61,235 bases of DNA from Escherichia phage slur01, in the sequence record NC_028831.1; one strand, 5' to 3'. The notes under the pieces were generated by a model. The model was not told the origin of the DNA and searched no databases. It saw nothing but the letters and a program-made list of their open reading frames with translations. Positions within the stretch are counted from its first letter, which is position 1. Each line of letters begins with the position of its first letter. This document shows positions 495 through 36,065 of the stretch, one piece after another. The translations under genes were made by a program, and so were the position numbers.

Positions 495-1382
495 TTACTG
501 CTGCCACGGCGGGACTGCTGCTTGTGCTGGATGCGGTTCAGCTTGCTGCTGCGGCTGAGCTTGCTGCTGAGGTGCTGCTGCCTGACCCGGCTGTGCTACC
601 TGCTGCGCCCACGGCTGCTGGGCTGCTTCCGGTGCTACTGGCTGTTGTACCGGAGCTTGCTGCACTGGCTGCTGTGGTGCTGCGTTTTGAGCAGGATTAT
701 CCCACGGCTGCGGTGCGGCATTCTGCCACGGTTGTGCTGCTGCGCCCTGCTGTGGTGCTGGTTGCTGCTGCACAGGCTGCTGAACTGGCTGCTGTTGCTG
801 CACCGGAGCTTGCTGCTGTACAGGCGCTTGCTGTTGCTGAGCAAACGGGTTAGCTGCTGGTTGCTGTGGTGCTGCGCCCGGGAAAGCTGGCTGCTGAGCT
901 GGCGCACCTGCACCGAACGGGTTAGCTACTGCCGCTTGAGCACCCATTGCTGGAGCACCTGCTTCTTTTTCTGCGTACTTAACCGGATCGTTGATGTTAG
1001 CATAACCGTTAGGCTCGTTGCTGTCTTCATAACCTTCCTGAGAACGAACTTTCAGACGCAGGTTCAGCGGAATGTTATGCAGTTGAGCAGGAGTATCCCA
1101 GCGAATTACGCCAACCGCATGGGAAAGCGCGCCCAGTTGCTCGTATGCAATACGCACAGTATCTTCGTTGTCGTTGATAACGTTGTAACGAGCAAAGATT
1201 TTACGACCTTTAGCAAAACCATCAATAATGCTAAACGTTACCTGGATCGCCATACCGCCATTTTTGGTCGGTTTAAATTCAGATGCTTCAATTACTGCTT
1301 TATACCAACCTTTCGGCAATGCGCCGTAAGAAGGTGCTTGATAGCTGCTCGCGTCAAAGTGGAAATTAGTTGGCATAGTCAT
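495..1382 (-). CDS. SSB-like ssDNA-binding protein with Q/P/A-rich disordered C-terminal tail (likely Sak4 partner)
   Basis: Globular N-terminal domain of about 140 aa followed by a long Gln/Pro/Ala low-complexity tail; start overlaps the upstream stop (TAATG); sits next to a Sak4-type ATPase. Confidence 0.6.
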   Translation of the reverse strand: MTMPTNFHFDASSYQAPSYGALPKGWYKAVIEASEFKPTKNGGMAIQVTFSIIDGFAKGRKIFARYNVINDNEDTVRIAYEQLGALSHAVGVIRWDTPAQLHNIPLNLRLKVRSQEGYEDSNEPNGYANINDPVKYAEKEAGAPAMGAQAAVANPFGAGAPAQQPAFPGAAPQQPAANPFAQQQQAPVQQQAPVQQQQPVQQPVQQQPAPQQGAAAQPWQNAAPQPWDNPAQNAAPQQPVQQAPVQQPVAPEAAQQPWAQQVAQPGQAAAPQQQAQPQQQAEPHPAQAAVPPWQQ

Positions 1383-28723: not shown

Positions 28724-28776
28724 CCATGGAAATGAGCCATAGACAATATGTGTTGTGGCTCCTCCGACGTAATAGA

Positions 28777-28808
28777 AAACGGCGTCAAGAAGACGCCGTT
28801 TCTGTTCC
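28777..28808 (+). terminator. Possible rho-independent terminator or attenuator
   Basis: Perfect 10-bp stem AAACGGCGTC/GACGCCGTTT with loop AAGAA, followed by CTGTTCC (weak T-run). Confidence 0.35.
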
Positions 28809-28861: not shown

Positions 28862-29368
28862 ATGGAGATTCCACTGATAGTTGAAGATGGTACTGGTGTA
28901 CCGGACGCCAACAGTTATGTTACCATTGAACAAGTCCGCATGTATGCAGCAATGCGAGGTATTGTACTTCCAAGTGAAGACGAAGATCTAAAGACAAAGA
29001 TCTTTGACGCTATGGATTTTGTGGAAGGGTACAGCCAACGCTTTAAAGGTTATAAAATTAACCCACAGCAACCGCTAAATTGGCCACGCTACGGGGTGTT
29101 TGTGGACGGGTTCGAGCTACCCCAAAGCCCCTTACCAAAGGCGCTTATAAACGCTGTTTGCCAGCTTACAGCGGACTCAGCTACTGGCGGTCCTCTTAAT
29201 GGGAAAACTACTGCATATGCAGTCAAAAGAACTAAAGTAGAAGGTCTTGAGATTGAATACGCAACTGGTAGCACAGCACAGTCAGGTCCAGCAAAAACAT
29301 ATGATAAAGCTATGACGTTTTTATCACCTTTGCTGGGTTATCAAATGGGTAACAGATTAATACGGTGA
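28862..29368 (+). CDS. Putative head-tail adaptor/connector protein
   Basis: 168 aa; position between head and tail genes. Confidence 0.4.
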   Translation: MEIPLIVEDGTGVPDANSYVTIEQVRMYAAMRGIVLPSEDEDLKTKIFDAMDFVEGYSQRFKGYKINPQQPLNWPRYGVFVDGFELPQSPLPKALINAVCQLTADSATGGPLNGKTTAYAVKRTKVEGLEIEYATGSTAQSGPAKTYDKAMTFLSPLLGYQMGNRLIR

Positions 29369-30159: not shown

Positions 30160-30608
30160 TGCTTGGATACGATTTCATTAATGATGCATTTAATAAGATG
30201 CTACGCGAAGCAGTTGGACCGGATATTGGTATAGCGTGGAAGAATAAGAAGTTTACACCTAAAGCTAACCAGATGTGGTTAAAGGCAATCAATGCTCCCG
30301 CTTCCACTTACGCTGCAACGCTAGGTGATAACGGTCTGAATGAAATTCCAGGCTTCTACCAAATCACAGTATATAGTCCTTTAAACACTGGAACGTCTAA
30401 GCAGAATCAAATCTTGGATTCTATTCGGAAAAAGTTTAAACTGGGCTTGCGTATCCCGTGCCCGGATGACCACACGTTACGGATTGTCAGTTTAGACTTT
30501 TCGCAAGGTGGACAAACTTCGCTGAACGATTTTACCAAAGGCGGGGTTGAAGATAACTGGGACGTTAACTTTATCACAATCTATTGGTCGGCTCGTGAGC
30601 CGAGGTAA
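30159..30608 (+). CDS. Putative tail terminator/completion protein
   Basis: 149 aa, immediately upstream of the major tail protein. Confidence 0.4.
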   Translation: MLGYDFINDAFNKMLREAVGPDIGIAWKNKKFTPKANQMWLKAINAPASTYAATLGDNGLNEIPGFYQITVYSPLNTGTSKQNQILDSIRKKFKLGLRIPCPDDHTLRIVSLDFSQGGQTSLNDFTKGGVEDNWDVNFITIYWSAREPR

Positions 30609-30622
30609 GAGAGGATCTAAAT

Positions 30623-31546
30623 ATGGCTACAGGTTCACGTTATTCGTGTTACTACGTCAAAGAAGATGTAAGCAACACTACGCCAGCGAGTGCGAAGTTT
30701 ACTCCGTTCCGTGTGACCAGCTCCGGTCTGGACATTAATATTGCAACGCTGGAATCTGAAGAACTGCGCGATGACGCTGAAACTGCGGACTTCCGCCTCG
30801 GTGCTCGCAGTGTTGAAGGTACAGTAACGGGCGAAATGTCCTTCGGCACCTTCGATGATCTTATTGCTGCTGCACTTCGTGGGGAGTGGCAAGACAACGT
30901 CCTTAAAGGCGGTATTATCCGTCAGTCGTTTACTTTCGTAGACTATAACGCAGATCTACCGTCAGGTAAATATACAATTTATCGCGGTTGCGAAGTTAAT
31001 AGCATGACTTTCTCATTGTCTGCTGAAAACATGACCACAGTGGAATTCGGTATTGTTGGTCGCTCGATGGAGATTGCGGAATCGCTTCCATCTGGTGCAA
31101 CTATCAAAGAGCGTACGACTACTTCACCGATGGATGGTTTCTCCGGCCGCTTGCTGGAAAACGACGAAGAAATCAGCGTTATTACGGAAATCGGTCTTAC
31201 CGTTGAAAACGATATTGCACCACGCTTTGTTGTTGGTTCTAAGTTCTCCATTGAACCGTCCGCTGGTCGTCGTGCGGTAACTGGTACAGCTAACGTGTAC
31301 TTCCTGGATAACAAGCTGCGTATGAAGTATCTGGATGAAGTGGAAACTTCAATCAAGTTTGATCTGATTGACCCAAGCAATCCGGAACAAAAATACACTG
31401 TGGAAATCCCTCGCGTGAAGTTCACTGAAGCTCCACGTCCTATTAACGGCGAAGGGGATATCATGCTTAATATGGGCTACCGCGGATTGCTGGACCCAAC
31501 AACCGCAAGTTCCATCAAAATTACCCGCGTTCTAGCGGCAGCCTAA
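30623..31546 (+). CDS. Major tail (tube) protein
   Basis: 307 aa, directly upstream of the chaperone-frameshift-tape measure unit. Confidence 0.65.
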   Translation: MATGSRYSCYYVKEDVSNTTPASAKFTPFRVTSSGLDINIATLESEELRDDAETADFRLGARSVEGTVTGEMSFGTFDDLIAAALRGEWQDNVLKGGIIRQSFTFVDYNADLPSGKYTIYRGCEVNSMTFSLSAENMTTVEFGIVGRSMEIAESLPSGATIKERTTTSPMDGFSGRLLENDEEISVITEIGLTVENDIAPRFVVGSKFSIEPSAGRRAVTGTANVYFLDNKLRMKYLDEVETSIKFDLIDPSNPEQKYTVEIPRVKFTEAPRPINGEGDIMLNMGYRGLLDPTTASSIKITRVLAAA

Positions 31547-31555
31547 GGATAAGAA

Positions 31556-31963
31556 ATGACCGACACCAAAAAAGCCAAAGTTGTAGTAGCTAAAAGCTTC
31601 CGTGATTTTAAAACTGTGAGCCGGGCCAACGACCCGGCAAACACTAAGCCTATGAATGTGGTTATTCCTGGTGTAGGCGACACTGGCGAAAAACTCTACA
31701 TTCGTAGCCGCTACTGCACAGAGTACCGTGATGCTGAACTGAAAGCACAGCGTCAACTGTTGGCTCTTATGCAGGGTAAAGACGGTGAAGTAACGGATGC
31801 TATGAAGGAAGATATCCTTACCCGTTCACTGTGTAACCTTGTAGCAGGTTGGACTTTTGACGAGCCACCGACTGTTGACAACGTGTTTGAGTTCTTAACG
31901 GAGAACCCAACTGTCCGAGAAGATCTTAACGTATTTGCCGCTAAAGATAGTAATTTTTTCTAA
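31556..31963 (+). CDS. Tail assembly chaperone (G-like, 0-frame product)
   Basis: 135 aa between major tail and tape measure genes; ends with slippery heptamer T-TTT-TTC just before the stop. Confidence 0.7.
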   Translation: MTDTKKAKVVVAKSFRDFKTVSRANDPANTKPMNVVIPGVGDTGEKLYIRSRYCTEYRDAELKAQRQLLALMQGKDGEVTDAMKEDILTRSLCNLVAGWTFDEPPTVDNVFEFLTENPTVREDLNVFAAKDSNFF

Positions 31964-32361
31964 AAGCGCGCAGACAGTTAATTGATAAGAAGATCCTCCA
32001 ATGGGAACTAAATAGCAAAGTCCCCGGCGGGGGATCTTCTTTATTATCGCAACTGCAAAAGGTTGAGGAACAGTCTGGTAAGACGCCACCTAAGCTTAAA
32101 GAATATCGGGAAAAGGAAATACCGGTTTGCTTTGAATACCTGTCTACTTTATTTGATGACATTTACACTGGAGGGGATTTTAGTTATACAGAATTGCACA
32201 GCTATCAGGTAACAATGGGCTTACATCTTCAACCGTACGAATGCGAAATACTGCGACAGCTATGGCTTGAAAAGCGCGTGTCTGAAGCTGAACAAAATGC
32301 TAAACTCATGGAAAGTCAAATGCAAAATCAGAATAAAGGTAGAAGGAAAAGGAGAAGGTAA
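31556..32361 (+). CDS. Tail assembly chaperone frameshift product (GT-like; programmed -1 frameshift at 31954..31960)
   Basis: The -1 frame after the slippery site TTTTTTC is open for 133 codons with no ATG and ends at a TAA overlapping the tape-measure ATG. Confidence 0.6.
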
Positions 32362-35300
32362 TGGCCGAAACTGCTTCGCTAGTAATCAGGGTTGACGCGA
32401 AAGGGATTAGCACAGCGGACTCCATGCTGCGTAACCTTGCGCGTACAGGTGACACAGCGGAGCGTTCCGCTCAACGTGTCACATCCAGCTATAAAACATT
32501 GTCTAACACATCTAACGAACTTGCAACTGTCACAAGTCGTTTAGATGCTGCAATTGTAGGAATGATCAGCGTTGACACCATTAACCGTGTTATTTCGCTA
32601 TCGGACTCCTGGACTATCCTCACCAACAAACTTGAACTGGCTCGTACGGGTAATGAAACCGTTGCGGATGCACAGCAACGCGTGTTTGATATTGCCCAGC
32701 GGTCACGTACAAGCTTGGAAGCAACTGCAACTCTATATTCCCGTCTCCAGCGTGCAATGAAGAATACTGGTATGACGGGTATGGAGCTTGGACGTATCAC
32801 TGAAACAATTAACAAAGCGATGATTGTTTCCGGTGCAACGTCACATGAAGCAAGCGCTGCTCTTATTCAGTTTTCGCAAGCAATGGCATCCGGTGTTTTG
32901 CGCGGGGATGAATTCCGTTCTGTTGCAGAACAAGCCCCGCGCTTAACTCAAATCATGTCCGATGCGTTAGGTGTTACCATTGGACAATTGCGTGAAATGG
33001 CTTACAGCGGCAAGTTGAGCGCCGATGTGGTTATCAAATCGTTGTCTGGTGCTGCGGATACAATTGATAAAGAATTTAGCCGCACTATGCCAACGTTTAA
33101 CCAGCAATGGACGGTTGCAACAAACAACTTGACTAAGTTCATGGGCGAATCCCAAAAGACTCAAGGTGCGGTTGCTGCATTGGGACAGACGTTTGTTGCG
33201 TTATCCGAAAACTTAGGAACGGTTGTAACAGTTGGTTCAGCTTTAGCCACAGTGATTACCGCCCGTATCATTACGGCAATGCTTGCTAAGACTAAAGCGT
33301 CTATAGCTGCTGCAAAAGCATCGCAGATGGAAGCTGCACAAACGGCGGCAACTACTGCGGTGATGCAAAGCTCTATTGGCGTTACCGCGCAGAAAGCGGC
33401 TGCGGATCGTGCTGCCTCTCTTGCAGCGTTACAGGTTGCTCGCGGGTCATTAGCGGTTGCTAAAGGTACGGCAGCGGAAGCAGGCGCACGTCTTGCGCTT
33501 ATTAACGCTACCCGTGCGCATTCTGCGGCAATTATGGCGGACGTACAAGCGCGGCAAGCGCTCAATGCTGCGCTTAATGCAACTGTACCAGCCGCAAGCC
33601 GAGCAGCTACAGCAATGAGCGTGCTGCGCGGTACTATGGGGTTAATTGGCGGTCCTGTTGGTGTAGCAATGCTGGCAGCGGGTGCAATTTACTCCTATAA
33701 AGCGTCGTTGGAAGCTGGTCGTGCGGAAAACAATCAGTTTGCGGATAGTGTTGATTCTGTACGCGAGAAACTGATGCAGATGACAGAAGCTCAGTTGGCA
33801 GCTAACGCAGTTAAAGCTCGCGCAATTCTCCCCGAACTTGAAGAGCAAATGAAGCGGGAGCAAACTGCTCTTAAATCTGCAACGGAAACGCAGAAGTTCT
33901 ATGAAGCACAATTAAAACGTCGCGCTGCGTCCGGTCGTAATACAGCTAGTGCCGAGAAGAATTTACAGATTGCTACGGATAACGTCAAGCTTGCTGCTGA
34001 ACGTGCTGAAGAAGCTCAACGCCGTTACAACAATGTCTTAGAAATGACAAGCCCTGCTATCGAGAAGATAATTCCGTTAGCTCGTCAGCTTGCAGCGGAT
34101 ATGAAAGCAGTGCTTAATATCAAATCCGGTCCGCTTATTGACGAGAAAGTGCTTGATCGTTTTAAAGGTCAGTTAGGTGACGTTAACCGTGAGATTGACG
34201 TTAACACGGTTAAAGGTGCTGGTAATGCTCGCCAGGCTGCAATCCTTAGTGGGCTGTATCAAACTCTGGGCAAAGATGCAGACACCTACGGAAGTCTAAT
34301 TCGCAAAGTAGCTATGGGGCAGGATGTTAGCTCTGAAGCAACAAGCGAGTCCGCAAAAGAACTTGTTAAATATGCTCAAGAGCTAGCGGAAGCTTACGGC
34401 AAGAATTATGATCTTGAAGAAGCGGAGAGAAATCGAACCAAAGCTACAAAAGACGCTATTAAGGCGGATCAACAGAACGCCAAAGTTATTGACGATTTAC
34501 GCAACAAGCTTAACGAAGTAACCACAGGGGTTAAGGAAAACGCTAAAGCTAAAGCGCAAGCTGTAGCACTCAATAAGTTAAATGCGTCCGCAACGGCTGC
34601 GGAAAAAGCAGAAGTTGTTAGTCTTGCTGCTGCAATTTACGATGCAGAAGAAGCTCAAAAGAAACTGGACGAGCGTAAGAAGAATCGTAAGTTTGCTCAG
34701 GGTCTGTTAGATGAAGGTATGACAGACTACGCGCAAATTGAATACGAGATGCAAGAAAAGATTATGAAGCTTCACAGGGATCAACAAGCGGATGATCTTG
34801 AGCATTATAAGCTCTACGAAGATGCAAAGACGCAAGTCCTGAAGAAAGCAAGTATGGAAAGAGAAAATCTGGATAAAGTTCTTATGAACCGAATGATATC
34901 TTTTTCTCAGGAATCCTTAGGCATTATAATGGATGGCCTGTCACAGGCTGTAAGCCAGCAGAACTTCTTTTATAAAGCTATGTTTGCAGCACAGAAAGCA
35001 ATGCAAATCCCATCAATCCTTGCCAACACGGAAACGGCAGCATCTGCGGCGCTTGCATGGGGTACACAGCAAGGAGGTGCTACGATGGGTGCAACAATGG
35101 CAGCTATAGTGAAAACTATGGGTTATGCGTCCGCTGCTACTGTGGGTGGCTTGGCGATCGCTGGTATGGCTCACGACGGTATTGATAACGTTCCGCGTGA
35201 AGGTACATGGCTGCTGGATAAGGGTGAACGTGTACTTAATGCTCCGTCTAATGACAAGTTAAATCGCTTCCTGGATAGCCAAGCTTCACAACAAGGTGGC

Positions 35301-35477
35301 GTGAATATGTCCGGTGGTGTTAGCATTGTTCAGTATATCACGGTGCAAGGGAATGGCGATGCAGCACTCACACAAGCCATGCAAAAAGCGGCCCGTGATG
35401 GCGCTGAGCAGGGATATAATAAAGTTCTCAATGACTTTGCATCCCGAGGAACAATTCGTAGAACTGCAATGGGGTAA
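32361..35477 (+). CDS. Tail tape measure protein
   Basis: 1038 aa, Ala-rich helical, after the chaperone frameshift unit; RBS AAGGAG. Confidence 0.85.
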   Translation: MAETASLVIRVDAKGISTADSMLRNLARTGDTAERSAQRVTSSYKTLSNTSNELATVTSRLDAAIVGMISVDTINRVISLSDSWTILTNKLELARTGNETVADAQQRVFDIAQRSRTSLEATATLYSRLQRAMKNTGMTGMELGRITETINKAMIVSGATSHEASAALIQFSQAMASGVLRGDEFRSVAEQAPRLTQIMSDALGVTIGQLREMAYSGKLSADVVIKSLSGAADTIDKEFSRTMPTFNQQWTVATNNLTKFMGESQKTQGAVAALGQTFVALSENLGTVVTVGSALATVITARIITAMLAKTKASIAAAKASQMEAAQTAATTAVMQSSIGVTAQKAAADRAASLAALQVARGSLAVAKGTAAEAGARLALINATRAHSAAIMADVQARQALNAALNATVPAASRAATAMSVLRGTMGLIGGPVGVAMLAAGAIYSYKASLEAGRAENNQFADSVDSVREKLMQMTEAQLAANAVKARAILPELEEQMKREQTALKSATETQKFYEAQLKRRAASGRNTASAEKNLQIATDNVKLAAERAEEAQRRYNNVLEMTSPAIEKIIPLARQLAADMKAVLNIKSGPLIDEKVLDRFKGQLGDVNREIDVNTVKGAGNARQAAILSGLYQTLGKDADTYGSLIRKVAMGQDVSSEATSESAKELVKYAQELAEAYGKNYDLEEAERNRTKATKDAIKADQQNAKVIDDLRNKLNEVTTGVKENAKAKAQAVALNKLNASATAAEKAEVVSLAAAIYDAEEAQKKLDERKKNRKFAQGLLDEGMTDYAQIEYEMQEKIMKLHRDQQADDLEHYKLYEDAKTQVLKKASMERENLDKVLMNRMISFSQESLGIIMDGLSQAVSQQNFFYKAMFAAQKAMQIPSILANTETAASAALAWGTQQGGATMGATMAAIVKTMGYASAATVGGLAIAGMAHDGIDNVPREGTWLLDKGERVLNAPSNDKLNRFLDSQASQQGGVNMSGGVSIVQYITVQGNGDAALTQAMQKAARDGAEQGYNKVLNDFASRGTIRRTAMG

Positions 35478-35480
35478 TAT

Positions 35481-36065
35481 ATGCTCACTTGGCCCGAAGA
35501 AATTAGACCGTCTGAGATGGAATGGTATCTAGTTTCAAACTCTGTAGAATTTACAAGCCCCTTCAATGGGGCTTCCCAAACTGTGTCCTATCCTGGATCA
35601 CGATGGGAAGCAACGTTGACATTTAGTAATTTAAATGACTGGCAATCCAGAAAGCTTGAATCAACATTAGCTAAGCTTGATGGTAAAGCTGGTCGAATCA
35701 TGCTCCAGGATTTTGGTCGTTGGGGACGTGCACCGATTGGATCACCTGTGGTTAACGGTGCAAACAATACGGGGACAACTTTATCAACTAAAGGTTGGAC
35801 ACCTAATAGAAAGGTTTTATGGGAAGGGGATTACATCGCAGTAAACAATGAATTAAAATTAATAACCGAGGATGCTTGGAGCGATTCTTCTGGCAACGTG
35901 ATATTAAATATCGCCCCGATGCTAAGGACTATTCCACCGAATGGGGCTAAAATCGAAACTCAAAAGCCACAAGGGGCTTTCCGGTTAGCGGAAAATACTA
36001 ACGGGGTTAAGCGTCAGCCAGCTTTTAATAATTCATTCACTCTAAAATTCTCGGAGGCGTTCTAA
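35481..36065 (+). CDS. Minor tail protein (lambda gpM-like position)
   Basis: First gene after the tape measure in a lambda-like tail-tip cassette. Confidence 0.45.
   Translation: MLTWPEEIRPSEMEWYLVSNSVEFTSPFNGASQTVSYPGSRWEATLTFSNLNDWQSRKLESTLAKLDGKAGRIMLQDFGRWGRAPIGSPVVNGANNTGTTLSTKGWTPNRKVLWEGDYIAVNNELKLITEDAWSDSSGNVILNIAPMLRTIPPNGAKIETQKPQGAFRLAENTNGVKRQPAFNNSFTLKFSEAF

What the first reader, a model, noticed from the sequence alone, without database searches (positions are those of the whole stretch)
31954..32361. Programmed -1 ribosomal frameshift in the tail assembly chaperone (G/GT-like)
The chaperone gene ends with the canonical slippery heptamer T-TTT-TTC (31954..31960) immediately before its stop. 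The -1 frame then stays open for 133 codons with no ATG start and terminates at a TAA overlapping the tape-measure ATG. This is the conserved G/GT arrangement of long-tailed phages and would be missed by a start-to-stop ORF track.
Basis: partly seen in the sequence, partly recalled or inferred. Interest (0 to 1): 0.55.

Follow-up and report, generated by a model that had tools for sequence, protein, structure and literature searches.

The report
Tail chaperone frameshift in a Seurat-like phage
This is the ordinary, already-annotated "G/GT" trick of long-tailed phages: a few ribosomes slip back one base at TTTTTTC at the end of the tail-chaperone gene and make a longer fusion protein needed to build the tail.

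Summary
A 135-codon chaperone ORF (31556..31963) ends ...AAT TTT TTC TAA. T_TTT_TTC (31954..31960) is in the correct register. The -1 frame is open only from 31954, so this heptamer is the only possible shift point. It runs 133 codons to a TAA overlapping the tape-measure ATG (32361).

The window is a Seuratvirus (Queuovirinae) coliphage. GenBank record KM236243 (phage Seurat, 93.7% identical) already annotates this site as ribosomal slippage with a joined "tape measure chaperone" CDS.

Comparative support is strong:
- 34 of 35 related loci keep an in-register T_TTT_TTC or T_TTT_TTA, although the chaperone stop sits 0-93 nt downstream of it.
- One PHROG profile spans both halves.
- The extension matches Pfam Phage_TAC_18.
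- Substitutions among 11 Seuratviruses are overwhelmingly synonymous in the -1 frame, including the 78 codons with no start codon.

No RNA structure lies at the usual 5-9 nt. A stable hairpin starts 22 nt downstream. Hairpins of different sequence occur at about the same place in related lineages. Its role is unknown.

Verdict: correct, ordinary and already known by annotation. The fusion protein is untested experimentally in this genus.

The parts
30623..31546 (+). Major tail tube protein gene (307 aa), immediately upstream; context that defines the G/GT position
   Evidence: Pfam Phage_tube_2 E 3.9e-41, phrog_290 E 2.8e-81
31556..31963 (+). G-like tail assembly (tape measure) chaperone ORF, 135 aa, zero frame, stop TAA at 31961-31963
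   Evidence: ORF list. Matches phrog_569 positions 11-126 at E 7.1e-26 and phrog_313 'tail assembly chaperone' at E 3.6e-11. Annotated 'tape measure chaperone' in phage Seurat.
31951..31953 (+). TAA in the -1 frame directly 5' of the heptamer. It closes the -1 frame upstream, so the shift can only occur within 31954-31963.
   Evidence: Frame translations; -1 frame open from 31954
31954..31960 (+). Slippery heptamer T_TTT_TTC. Two tRNA-Phe on UUU and UUC re-pair on UUU and UUU.
   Evidence: Read directly. In-register heptamer kept in 34 of 35 related loci. U_UU.U_UU.C belongs to the class of motifs most efficient in E. coli (PMC4066793).
31960..32361 (+). T-like extension in the -1 frame: 133 codons plus TAA (32359-32361). 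Reached only by frameshifting. The fusion GT = join(31556..31960, 31960..32361), 268 aa.
   Evidence: Pfam Phage_TAC_18, 38.3 bits against a cut-off of 27. phrog_569 positions 130-256, E 8e-47. tblastn homology starts at residue 1 in Nonagvirus and other relatives. Variable codons split 33 synonymous to 11 non-synonymous in the -1 frame, against 1:43 in the zero frame.
31983..32046 (+). Stable branched hairpin inside the T coding region, starting 22 nt after the heptamer. Outer stem 31983-31999 pairs with 32029-32046. Function unknown.
   Evidence: 31961-32060 folds to -33.7 kcal/mol, z -5.0. More stable than all 200 synonymous recodings. Hairpins of different sequence sit at about the same place in yong3, Nonagvirus, Kpn2-P2-like, Vid5 and K4PH164-like lineages.
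32020..32045 (+). Alternative local fold: a terminator-like GC hairpin (GTCCCCGGCGGGGGAT) followed by CTTCTTTATT
   Evidence: Consensus scan only. The count of such sites in the region was no higher than in shuffles, and the U-rich tail is not conserved outside Seuratvirus and yong3.
32350..32354 (+). Shine-Dalgarno AGGAG for the tape measure gene, embedded in the Arg/Lys-rich last codons of the T extension
   Evidence: Read directly from the sequence; 6 nt before the ATG at 32361
32361..35477 (+). Tape measure protein gene (1038 aa). Its ATG overlaps the TAA of the -1 frame (TAATG).
   Evidence: Pfam TMP_3 E 6.5e-60, phrog_339 E 3.9e-181

Best explanation
The window carries the tail module of a Seuratvirus (Queuovirinae) coliphage. 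Most ribosomes translate 31556..31963 and stop, giving a 135-aa chaperone, the analogue of lambda gpG. A small fraction slip one base backwards on U_UUU_UUC (31954-31960), continue in the -1 frame to 32361, and make a 268-aa fusion, the analogue of gpGT.

The slip could happen in either of two ways. The tRNA-Phe pair in the P and A sites could slip together. Alternatively, the P-site tRNA-Phe alone could slip while the adjacent UAA waits in the A site. Both routes give the same junction, ...DSNFF-LKARRQ....

By analogy with lambda, the G part coats the tape measure protein and the T part recruits the tube protein. The fixed low G:GT ratio is set by slip efficiency, and neither protein ends up in the virion.

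Shown here: the anatomy, conservation of the slip site, coding selection on the -1 frame, and homology of both halves to chaperone families. Inferred: that the fusion is actually made, its abundance, and the binding partners.
For: Anatomy
- The heptamer is in register and abuts the stop. The G/-1 frame overlap is 7 nt, and there is no start codon for 78 codons.

Context
- The ORFs lie between the tube gene and the tape measure gene.

Homology
- One 256-position profile, phrog_569, is matched by the G part (positions 11-126) and the T part (positions 130-256).
- The T part passes the Pfam Phage_TAC_18 gathering score.

Conservation
- An in-register T_TTT_TTC is present in 28 of 35 loci, and T_TTT_TTA with an overlapping T_TTA_AAG or T_TTA_AAC in 6 more.
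- The heptamer stays at the homologous position while the zero-frame stop lies 0-93 nt downstream and the zero-frame tail is unconserved.
- tblastn alignments of the T part begin at residue 1, right at the slip site, in phages only 35-56% identical. Residues R4, I8 and W15 are invariant in the 5-sequence alignment A3, and they lie upstream of the internal 'start' codons some annotators used.

Selection (11 Seuratviruses)
- 39 of 55 variable columns fall at the third position of the -1 frame, and 25 of 31 in the start-less first 78 codons.
- Variable codons are 33 all-synonymous to 11 non-synonymous in the -1 frame, 1:43 in the zero frame and 3:41 in the +1 frame.

Prior annotation and literature
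- U_UU.U_UU.C is in the most efficient class of -1 motifs in E. coli and is used by IS elements (PMC4066793).
- The G/GT arrangement is widely conserved in long-tailed phages (PMC5009743).
Against: - There is no direct evidence that the fusion protein exists in this phage or genus; the Seurat annotation is itself by analogy.
- No stimulatory RNA structure sits at the canonical 4-10 nt, since the first 40 nt after the site do not fold at all. No SD-like sequence is visible upstream. In reporter contexts without a stimulator, motif-alone frameshifting is reported at 2.1-10 times a background of about 0.055%, so under 1% (PMC4066793). The achieved ratio is therefore unknown.
- No detectable sequence homology to lambda gpG or gpT families. 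The functional assignment of the two domains rests on position and on generic chaperone families.
- The structure model of the G part was too poor to test the fold (pLDDT 45).
Confidence: 0.9

Rival explanations
1. There are two separate genes and no recoding. The downstream reading frame is expressed only as a short independent protein from an internal start (TTG 32194 or ATG 32215, 48-55 aa), as many GenBank records annotate it. The open frame upstream of that start is untranslated.
For: Relatives are annotated this way: VogelGryff and CSP1C carry a 48-aa 'tape measure chaperone', Skure a TTG start, and KS_W4 and Dru_SM1 two small ORFs. More distant relatives have TTG or ATG codons 30-50 nt after the slip site that annotators used as starts.
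Against: - The first 78 start-less codons show a clear coding signature in the -1 frame: 25 of 31 variable columns at the third position, and 20:6 synonymous to non-synonymous variable codons against 0:25 in the zero frame.
- Protein homology begins at the slip site in distant phages. Conserved residues R4, I8 and W15 precede the candidate internal starts.
- phrog_569 covers both halves contiguously.
- The window has no ATG, GTG or TTG at the position used in relatives; that codon is CTA.
- Internal initiation may still occur in addition, but it cannot explain these data.
Confidence: 0.04
2. The fusion is made, but by RNA polymerase slippage on the T6 run (one extra U in a fraction of transcripts) rather than by ribosomal slippage.
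For: The site is a homopolymeric run of T6, and T7 in Nonagvirus and the K4PH164-like clade. Sequence alone cannot separate the two mechanisms, because both give the same protein.
Against: - From my own knowledge of the field, not checked here: productive transcriptional slippage in bacteria generally needs runs of about 9 or more A or T, so six is short.
- The K4PH164-like clade has acquired a second overlapping ribosomal motif, T_TTA_AAG or T_TTA_AAC. T_TTA_AAG is one of the best E. coli -1 motifs (PMC4066793), which suggests selection on tRNA re-pairing.
- The most distant homologue keeps only a T5 run, C_TTT_TTA.
Confidence: 0.03
3. The arrangement is a decayed or mis-sequenced single gene (an indel in a T run) with no programmed function.
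For: Homopolymer runs are typical sites of sequencing and mutational indels.
Against: The same two-frame arrangement, with a zero-frame stop after the heptamer, recurs in 35 independently sequenced loci from isolates and metagenomes. They span several genera and differ in the position of the stop. Both frames are under purifying selection in their own segments.
Confidence: 0.01

Closest known systems
Escherichia phage Seurat gp13/gp14 'tape measure chaperone' (GenBank KM236243, CPT_Seurat13/14)
   Same: Same genus, 93.7% nucleotide identity over the 4.9-kb query (30600..35500). The heptamer and stop context (TAATTTTTTCTAAAAGC) are identical, the T part differs at 1 of 133 residues, and the -1 frame ends in the same overlap with the tape measure ATG.
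   Different: Nothing of substance: 31 nucleotide differences in the 808-nt G-T region, almost all synonymous. Most other records of the genus (CAjan, Greed, SLUR phages, phiG7, the BASEL phages) lack the joined CDS.
Bacteriophage lambda G/GT (Levin, Hendrix & Casjens 1993; Xu, Hendrix & Duda 2004, 2013, 2014, as summarised in PMC5009743)
   Same: Two overlapping ORFs lie between the major tail gene and the tape measure gene. A -1 shift near the end of the first ORF gives a fusion. No stimulatory structure is evident at the usual spacing. The arrangement is conserved despite sequence divergence.
   Different: - The slip site is U_UUU_UUC rather than G_GGA_AAG.
- Here the stop directly abuts the heptamer and the ORF overlap is 7 nt. 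In the lambda record the G and T CDS overlap by 19 nt.
- There is no detectable sequence homology to lambda G or T families.
- A strongly selected hairpin lies 22-35 nt downstream here. The same test on lambda gives a weaker signal (z -2.05, 5 of 200).
Classical bacterial -1 frameshift cassettes (IS911/IS3 transposases, dnaX)
   Same: An X_XXY_YYZ heptamer with tandem tRNA re-pairing. U_UU.U_UU.C is itself among the motifs found in IS elements (PMC4066793).
   Different: Those cassettes have a hairpin or pseudoknot starting 4-10 nt downstream, an SD-like element upstream, or both. Here neither is present at those positions (sequence read).

Membership tests
G/GT-type tail assembly chaperone pair with programmed -1 frameshift (Xu, Hendrix & Duda 2004 arrangement) | Two ORFs located between the major tail (tube) gene and the tape measure gene | tested here: met
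   Tube gene 30623..31546 (Phage_tube_2), ORFs at 31556..32361, tape measure gene 32361..35477 (TMP_3)
G/GT-type tail assembly chaperone pair with programmed -1 frameshift (Xu, Hendrix & Duda 2004 arrangement) | Second ORF in the -1 frame, overlapping the end of the first, without its own start signal near its 5' end | tested here: met
   The -1 frame is open 31954..32361. The first ATG, GTG or TTG is at codon 79, 32194.
G/GT-type tail assembly chaperone pair with programmed -1 frameshift (Xu, Hendrix & Duda 2004 arrangement) | Slippery sequence in the overlap, in register with the zero frame | tested here: met
   T_TTT_TTC at 31954..31960, the only in-register position in the 7-nt overlap. 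Background frequency is 0.25% per codon position.
G/GT-type tail assembly chaperone pair with programmed -1 frameshift (Xu, Hendrix & Duda 2004 arrangement) | Slip site and frame arrangement conserved among relatives, with the -1 ORF under coding selection | tested here: met
   34 of 35 loci keep the heptamer. Variable codons are 33:11 synonymous to non-synonymous in the -1 frame against 1:43 in the zero frame.
G/GT-type tail assembly chaperone pair with programmed -1 frameshift (Xu, Hendrix & Duda 2004 arrangement) | Fusion protein actually produced at a low, fixed ratio to the short product | not testable with these tools
   Needs immunoblotting, targeted mass spectrometry or a reporter assay
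G/GT-type tail assembly chaperone pair with programmed -1 frameshift (Xu, Hendrix & Duda 2004 arrangement) | Both products required for tail assembly and absent from virions; the G part binds the tape measure protein and the T part binds the tube protein | not testable with these tools
   Known for lambda only (PMC5009743); inferred here
Pfam PF23812 Phage_TAC_18 / PHROG 569 | Score above the family threshold | tested here: met
   T part scores 38.3 bits against a gathering score of 27. For phrog_569 the G part gives E 7.1e-26 and the T part E 8e-47, on adjacent halves of one profile.
Lambda gpG and gpT sequence families (Pfam families for lambda G and 'minor tail protein T'; names from memory) | Detectable sequence homology | tested here: not met
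   No such Pfam hit at E up to 1. The G part has only a sub-threshold Phage_TAC_4 hit (14.3 bits against 21.1). It works like lambda G/GT but is not a sequence-family member.
Classical -1 frameshift cassette with 3' stimulator (IS3/IS911/dnaX type) | Hairpin or pseudoknot starting 4-10 nt after the heptamer, and/or an SD-like element 6-17 nt upstream | tested here: not met
   31961-32000 has an MFE of 0 kcal/mol. The nearest stem starts 22 nt downstream. The upstream sequence GCCGCTAAAGATAGTAA has no GGAG-like element. Criteria taken from PMC4066793.
Intrinsic (Rho-independent) terminator at 32020-32045 | GC-rich hairpin immediately followed by a U tract, conserved and functional | tested here: inconclusive
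   It matches a loose consensus (6-bp stem, CTTCTTTATT), but the number of such matches in the region is no higher than in shuffles (4 against 3.4). It competes with a more stable long stem. The U-rich tail is absent in Nonagvirus, Kpn2-P2 and Vid5.

The most novel reading that the evidence does not exclude
The most novel reading concerns the hairpin, not the frameshift. Every Queuovirinae-like lineage examined keeps a stable hairpin centred about 50-55 nt (62 nt in Vid5) 3' of the slip site. Its sequence differs between lineages, and it always lies beyond the zero-frame stop. It may be a functional RNA element of a kind not described for G/GT loci.

Possible roles:
- a distal modulator of the frameshift or of termination at the adjacent stop;
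- a partial terminator, processing site or 3' stabiliser that sets the stoichiometry of tube and G against T and tape measure protein;
- an occluder of spurious internal initiation of a free T domain.
Probability: 0.3. Interest if true: 0.45.

Novelty: already known. Interest (0 to 1): 0.2.

Why it matters
Practically, it matters for annotation. In most GenBank records of this genus the 400 nt between the chaperone and the tape measure gene are left empty, split into 48-70 aa 'hypothetical proteins', or labelled 'tail length tape measure protein'. They should instead carry a joined CDS with ribosomal slippage, as in phage Seurat.

Biologically it adds nothing new about G/GT. It does give one more well-supported case where the slip site is U_UUU_UUC directly abutting a stop codon, conserved from E. 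coli Seuratviruses out to Pseudomonas and Alteromonas siphophages.

The only point of possible wider interest is the hairpin. It is selected at synonymous sites and lies too far downstream (22-35 nt) to be a classical stimulator. Reporter assays would settle whether it affects frameshifting, transcript 3' ends or internal initiation.

Tried and rejected
1. Homologue search with the artificial 268-aa fusion found nothing at E <= 0.001. The G part alone gave only 8 clusters, too few for a deep alignment.
2. AlphaFold2 on the G part with that 8-sequence alignment gave mean pLDDT 45.3 and pTM 0.31. This is unusable, so no fold search was run and the chaperone fold is untested.
3. Sequence search of the fusion against PDB chains gave only chance-level hits (E about 0.4, protein Rof).
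4. The search for related loci with a 9-sequence T alignment failed for lack of a conserved stretch. A 5-sequence alignment worked.
5. RNAalifold on 16 heptamer-anchored sequences predicted no consensus pairs. The hairpin's 3' arm sits in different registers in different lineages, so column-wise covariation cannot be claimed across the whole set. Only the Nonagvirus and Kpn2-P2-like clades share a register, with 2 compensatory pairs that amount to roughly two events.
6. Rfam gave no family at gathering score in the whole window. Around the site there were only sub-threshold miRNA-precursor-like hits, which reflect a generic long hairpin.
7. A canonical stimulatory structure 5-9 nt downstream was rejected.
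8. The hairpin as an exceptional genome-wide outlier was rejected. Raw 80-nt MFE puts it outside the top 15 windows of the 61-kb window, which are GC-rich stretches. Its significance rests on the synonymous-recoding test, not on raw energy.
9. Reduced synonymous variability at 31960-32079 (2 of 40 third positions) is suggestive, but variability is patchy elsewhere too, so it is not counted as independent evidence.

Full report
**1. What is in the sequence**

The region was read directly and translated in all three forward frames.
- An ORF at 31556..31963 encodes 135 aa and ends ...GAT AGT AAT TTT TTC TAA.
- T_TTT_TTC therefore lies at 31954..31960 in X_XXY_YYZ register, and the zero-frame stop (31961-31963) follows immediately.
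- In the -1 frame the triplet just before the heptamer is TAA (31951-31953). The -1 frame is thus open from exactly 31954, and its overlap with the chaperone frame is 7 nt. That leaves a single place where a -1 shift can join the two frames, and it is occupied by a slippery heptamer.
- After the shift the reading is TTT TTT CTA AAA GCG ..., giving the junction ...DSNFF-LKARRQLID....
- The -1 frame then runs 133 sense codons to TAA 32359-32361, which overlaps the ATG (32361) of a 1038-aa ORF.
- The -1 frame has no ATG, GTG or TTG until TTG 32194 (codon 79) and ATG 32215.
- A mechanical ORF list shows only a 55-aa fragment, 32194..32361.

**2. Is it more than chance?**

- In + strand ORFs of at least 80 aa, in-register XXXYYYZ heptamers occupy 34 of 13,490 codon positions (0.25%).
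- Among them this site has the longest -1 frame open downstream, 135 codons.
- Over the same 133 codons the zero frame has 4 stops and the +1 frame 15-19 in the 11 Seuratviruses compared, against none in the -1 frame.

**3. Context and identity**

- The upstream gene (30623..31546) is a tail tube protein (Pfam Phage_tube_2, E 3.9e-41). The downstream gene is a tape measure protein (TMP_3, E 6.5e-60).
- A 4.9-kb query spanning these genes (30600..35500) is 98.7% identical to Escherichia phages vB_Eco_SLUR76 and SLUR26, 98.5% to Greed, 96.3% to CAjan and 93.7% to Seurat. All are Seuratvirus, subfamily Queuovirinae.
- GenBank KM236243 (Seurat) already annotates a two-piece joined CDS, 'tape measure chaperone', across this site, and marks the short CDS 'ribosomal slippage (10236)'. 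That position lies inside the homologous heptamer.
- Most other records of the genus annotate nothing in the 400-nt stretch (CAjan, phiG7), or small ORFs of about 48-70 aa (VogelGryff, WildeMaa, CSP1C, Skure, ECP2304, KS_W4, Dru_SM1).

**4. Homology of the two halves**

- The 135-aa part matches phrog_569 at profile positions 11-126 (E 7.1e-26). The 133-aa -1 frame part matches the same 256-position profile at positions 130-256 (E 8e-47). The family profile was therefore built from fused proteins, and this locus supplies both halves in order.
- The G part also hits phrog_313, 'tail assembly chaperone' (E 3.6e-11).
- The T part passes the gathering score of Pfam PF23812 Phage_TAC_18 (38.3 against 27 bits). 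The G part has only a sub-threshold Phage_TAC_4 hit.
- No hit to the lambda G or T families was seen. The locus works like lambda G/GT without being a detectable sequence relative.

**5. Conservation in relatives**

- tblastn with the T part found 85 phage records. In phages only 35-56% identical (Hafnia yong3, Nonagvirus 9g/JenK1/JenP1/SE1, Kpn2-P2) the alignment starts at query residue 1, at the slip site.
- I fetched 14 annotated loci and 22 IMG/VR loci, and located the frames mechanically.
- In 34 of 35 loci, window included and some phages present in both databases, the overlap contains an in-register heptamer at the homologous position. It is T_TTT_TTC in 28. In 6 it is T_TTT_TTA with an overlapping T_TTA_AAG or T_TTA_AAC.
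- This holds in Pantoea Vid5, Providencia PSTCR4, Alteromonas R7M and Pseudomonas Ab18 and Baskent_P4_1. In those phages the zero-frame stop has moved 3-93 nt downstream of the heptamer and the zero-frame tail is unconserved, while the -1 frame protein aligns without gaps from the heptamer onward.
- The one exception, L043 (32% identity), keeps only C_TTT_TTA, a U_UUU tetramer.

**6. Coding selection on the -1 frame**

Eleven Seuratvirus sequences align without gaps over the 808 nt.
- In the T region, 39 of 55 variable columns fall at the third position of the -1 frame. In the start-less first 78 codons the figure is 25 of 31.
- Variable codons are all-synonymous 33 times and non-synonymous 11 times in the -1 frame, against 1:43 in the zero frame and 3:41 in the +1 frame.
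- The G region shows the mirror pattern: 60:14 in its own frame.

Together with invariant residues (R4, I8, W15 in the 5-sequence alignment) that lie upstream of the internal start codons used by some annotators, this rules out the idea that only a short internally initiated peptide is made.

**7. Mechanism**

- Both codons of the heptamer are Phe. After a -1 shift the P-site tRNA reads UUU again and the A-site tRNA moves from UUC to UUU, so both re-pairings are cognate.
- Sharma et al. (PMC4066793) place H_HH.U_UU.Y, which includes U_UU.U_UU.C, among the most efficient -1 motifs in E. coli. They list U_UU.U_UU.C among motifs giving more than 0.10% without any stimulator, and find it in IS elements.
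- Because UAA follows directly, a single P-site slip of tRNA-Phe (UUC to UUU) while the stop waits in the A site would give the same product. Sequence cannot separate this from tandem slippage. That slow decoding of the adjacent stop could raise the rate is my inference from general knowledge, not tested here.
- By analogy with lambda (PMC5009743), G is the abundant product that binds the tape measure protein. GT carries the T domain that recruits the tube protein. The ratio is about 30:1, and neither protein is in the virion. For that reason infected cells, not virions, are the right sample for mass spectrometry.

**8. Downstream RNA structure**

- The first 40 nt after the heptamer do not fold (MFE 0). 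No SD-like element lies upstream. The locus therefore lacks the classical stimulators, which start 4-10 nt downstream (PMC4066793).
- However, 31961-32060 folds to -33.7 kcal/mol (z -5.0 against dinucleotide shuffles). A long stem, 31983-31999 with 32029-32046, begins 22 nt after the heptamer. A smaller terminator-like alternative sits at 32020-32045.
- Hairpins of different sequence are predicted at nearly the same place in yong3, Nonagvirus, Kpn2-P2-like phages, Vid5, K4PH164-like phages and two IMG/VR lineages.
- Against 200 recodings that keep the protein and resample synonymous codons, T codons 7-32 are more stable than every recoding in 8 of 12 such lineages, and z is -2.0 to -2.6 in three more (L035 is weaker, z -1.3). 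Most control segments further along the ORF are near zero.
- Lambda gives a weaker signal in the same test (z -2.05, 5 of 200).

Limits of this evidence:
- RNAalifold finds no column-wise consensus, because the register drifts between lineages.
- Only the Nonagvirus and Kpn2-P2 clades share a register, with two compensatory pairs.
- There is no Rfam match.
- In raw energy the hairpin is not among the 15 most stable 80-nt windows of the window.

In the lineages with a clear hairpin it lies beyond the zero-frame stop, so only frameshifted ribosomes would unwind it. Its function is open: distal modulator, partial terminator or 3' stabiliser, or occlusion of internal starts.

**9. Rivals**

- Independent initiation of a short T peptide is contradicted by sections 4-6.
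- Transcriptional slippage on T6 cannot be excluded from sequence. It is unlikely for so short a run (my knowledge). The overlapping T_TTA_AAG or T_TTA_AAC ribosomal motif acquired in one clade points to tRNA re-pairing instead.
- Sequencing error or gene decay is excluded by recurrence of the arrangement in 35 loci.

**10. Verdict**

The feature is a standard G/GT-type programmed -1 frameshift, already annotated in a congeneric phage, so it is not novel. Production of the fusion remains experimentally untested in this genus. The conserved distal hairpin is the only item that might repay an experiment.

Noticed in passing
window 31983-32046 (also L004, L005, L006, L008, L010, L035, L037 and L038 at 22-36 nt after their heptamers): A stable hairpin lies inside the T coding region, starting 22-35 nt after the slip site. 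It is present with different sequences in the Queuovirinae-like lineages examined. It beats all 200 synonymous recodings in 8 of 12 lineages. It is too far downstream to be a classical frameshift stimulator, and its function is unknown.
   Followed up: partly
L005, L007, L025, L027 and L028 (Klebsiella K4PH164 / Enterobacter EC151-like) at the heptamer; L037 has the variant: This clade has CTTTTTTTAAAG, two overlapping in-register heptamers: T_TTT_TTA and T_TTA_AAG. The second is among the most efficient E. coli -1 motifs. L037 carries T_TTA_AAC instead. The slip site may have shifted by one codon in this clade.
   Followed up: no
L043 1425-1441 (IMG/VR 3300033143_000346): The most distant T homologue (32% identity) has no XXXYYYZ heptamer in the overlap. 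It has only A CTT TTT ATG (C_TTT_TTA, a U_UUU tetramer), which suggests a weaker or single-tRNA slip site.
   Followed up: partly
GenBank and RefSeq records of relatives; PHROG 569: There is a systematic annotation problem. The 135-aa chaperone is labelled 'tail length tape measure protein' in the GenBank or RefSeq records of K4PH164, Vid5, JenK1, PSTCR4, Kpn2-P2, Dru_SM1 and KS_W4, and in PHROG 569. The T region is left blank or cut into small 'hypothetical proteins'. Among the fetched records, only Seurat carries the joined CDS.
   Followed up: yes
window 32335-32361: The T extension ends in a very basic tail, ...NKGRRKRRR. Its purine-rich codons (AAA GGT AGA AGG AAA AGG AGA AGG) contain the AGGAG Shine-Dalgarno of the tape measure gene. 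Relatives also end in Lys/Arg-rich tails, so the tail may partly be a by-product of the ribosome-binding site.
   Followed up: no
L011 1201-1470 (Aeromonas phage AP1, MT713136, 240650-240919): A T-like sequence (34.6% identity, E 7e-12) occurs in a 254-kb Straboviridae genome, on the strand opposite to the annotated CDS there. This is odd for a T4-like myovirus. It could be an acquired fragment or an assembly chimera.
   Followed up: no
window 500-930: A GC-rich (about 0.65) stretch full of GCTGCTG-type repeats gives the most stable local RNA folds in the window (-35 to -42 kcal/mol per 80 nt). It was not examined further.
   Followed up: no
window 28768-28805: A canonical-looking intrinsic terminator (AAACGGCGUC-loop-GACGCCGUUU followed by CUGUU) lies just upstream of the ORF starting at 28862.
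   Followed up: no
whole window: There are no tRNA genes and no Rfam family at gathering score in the 61-kb window.
   Followed up: yes
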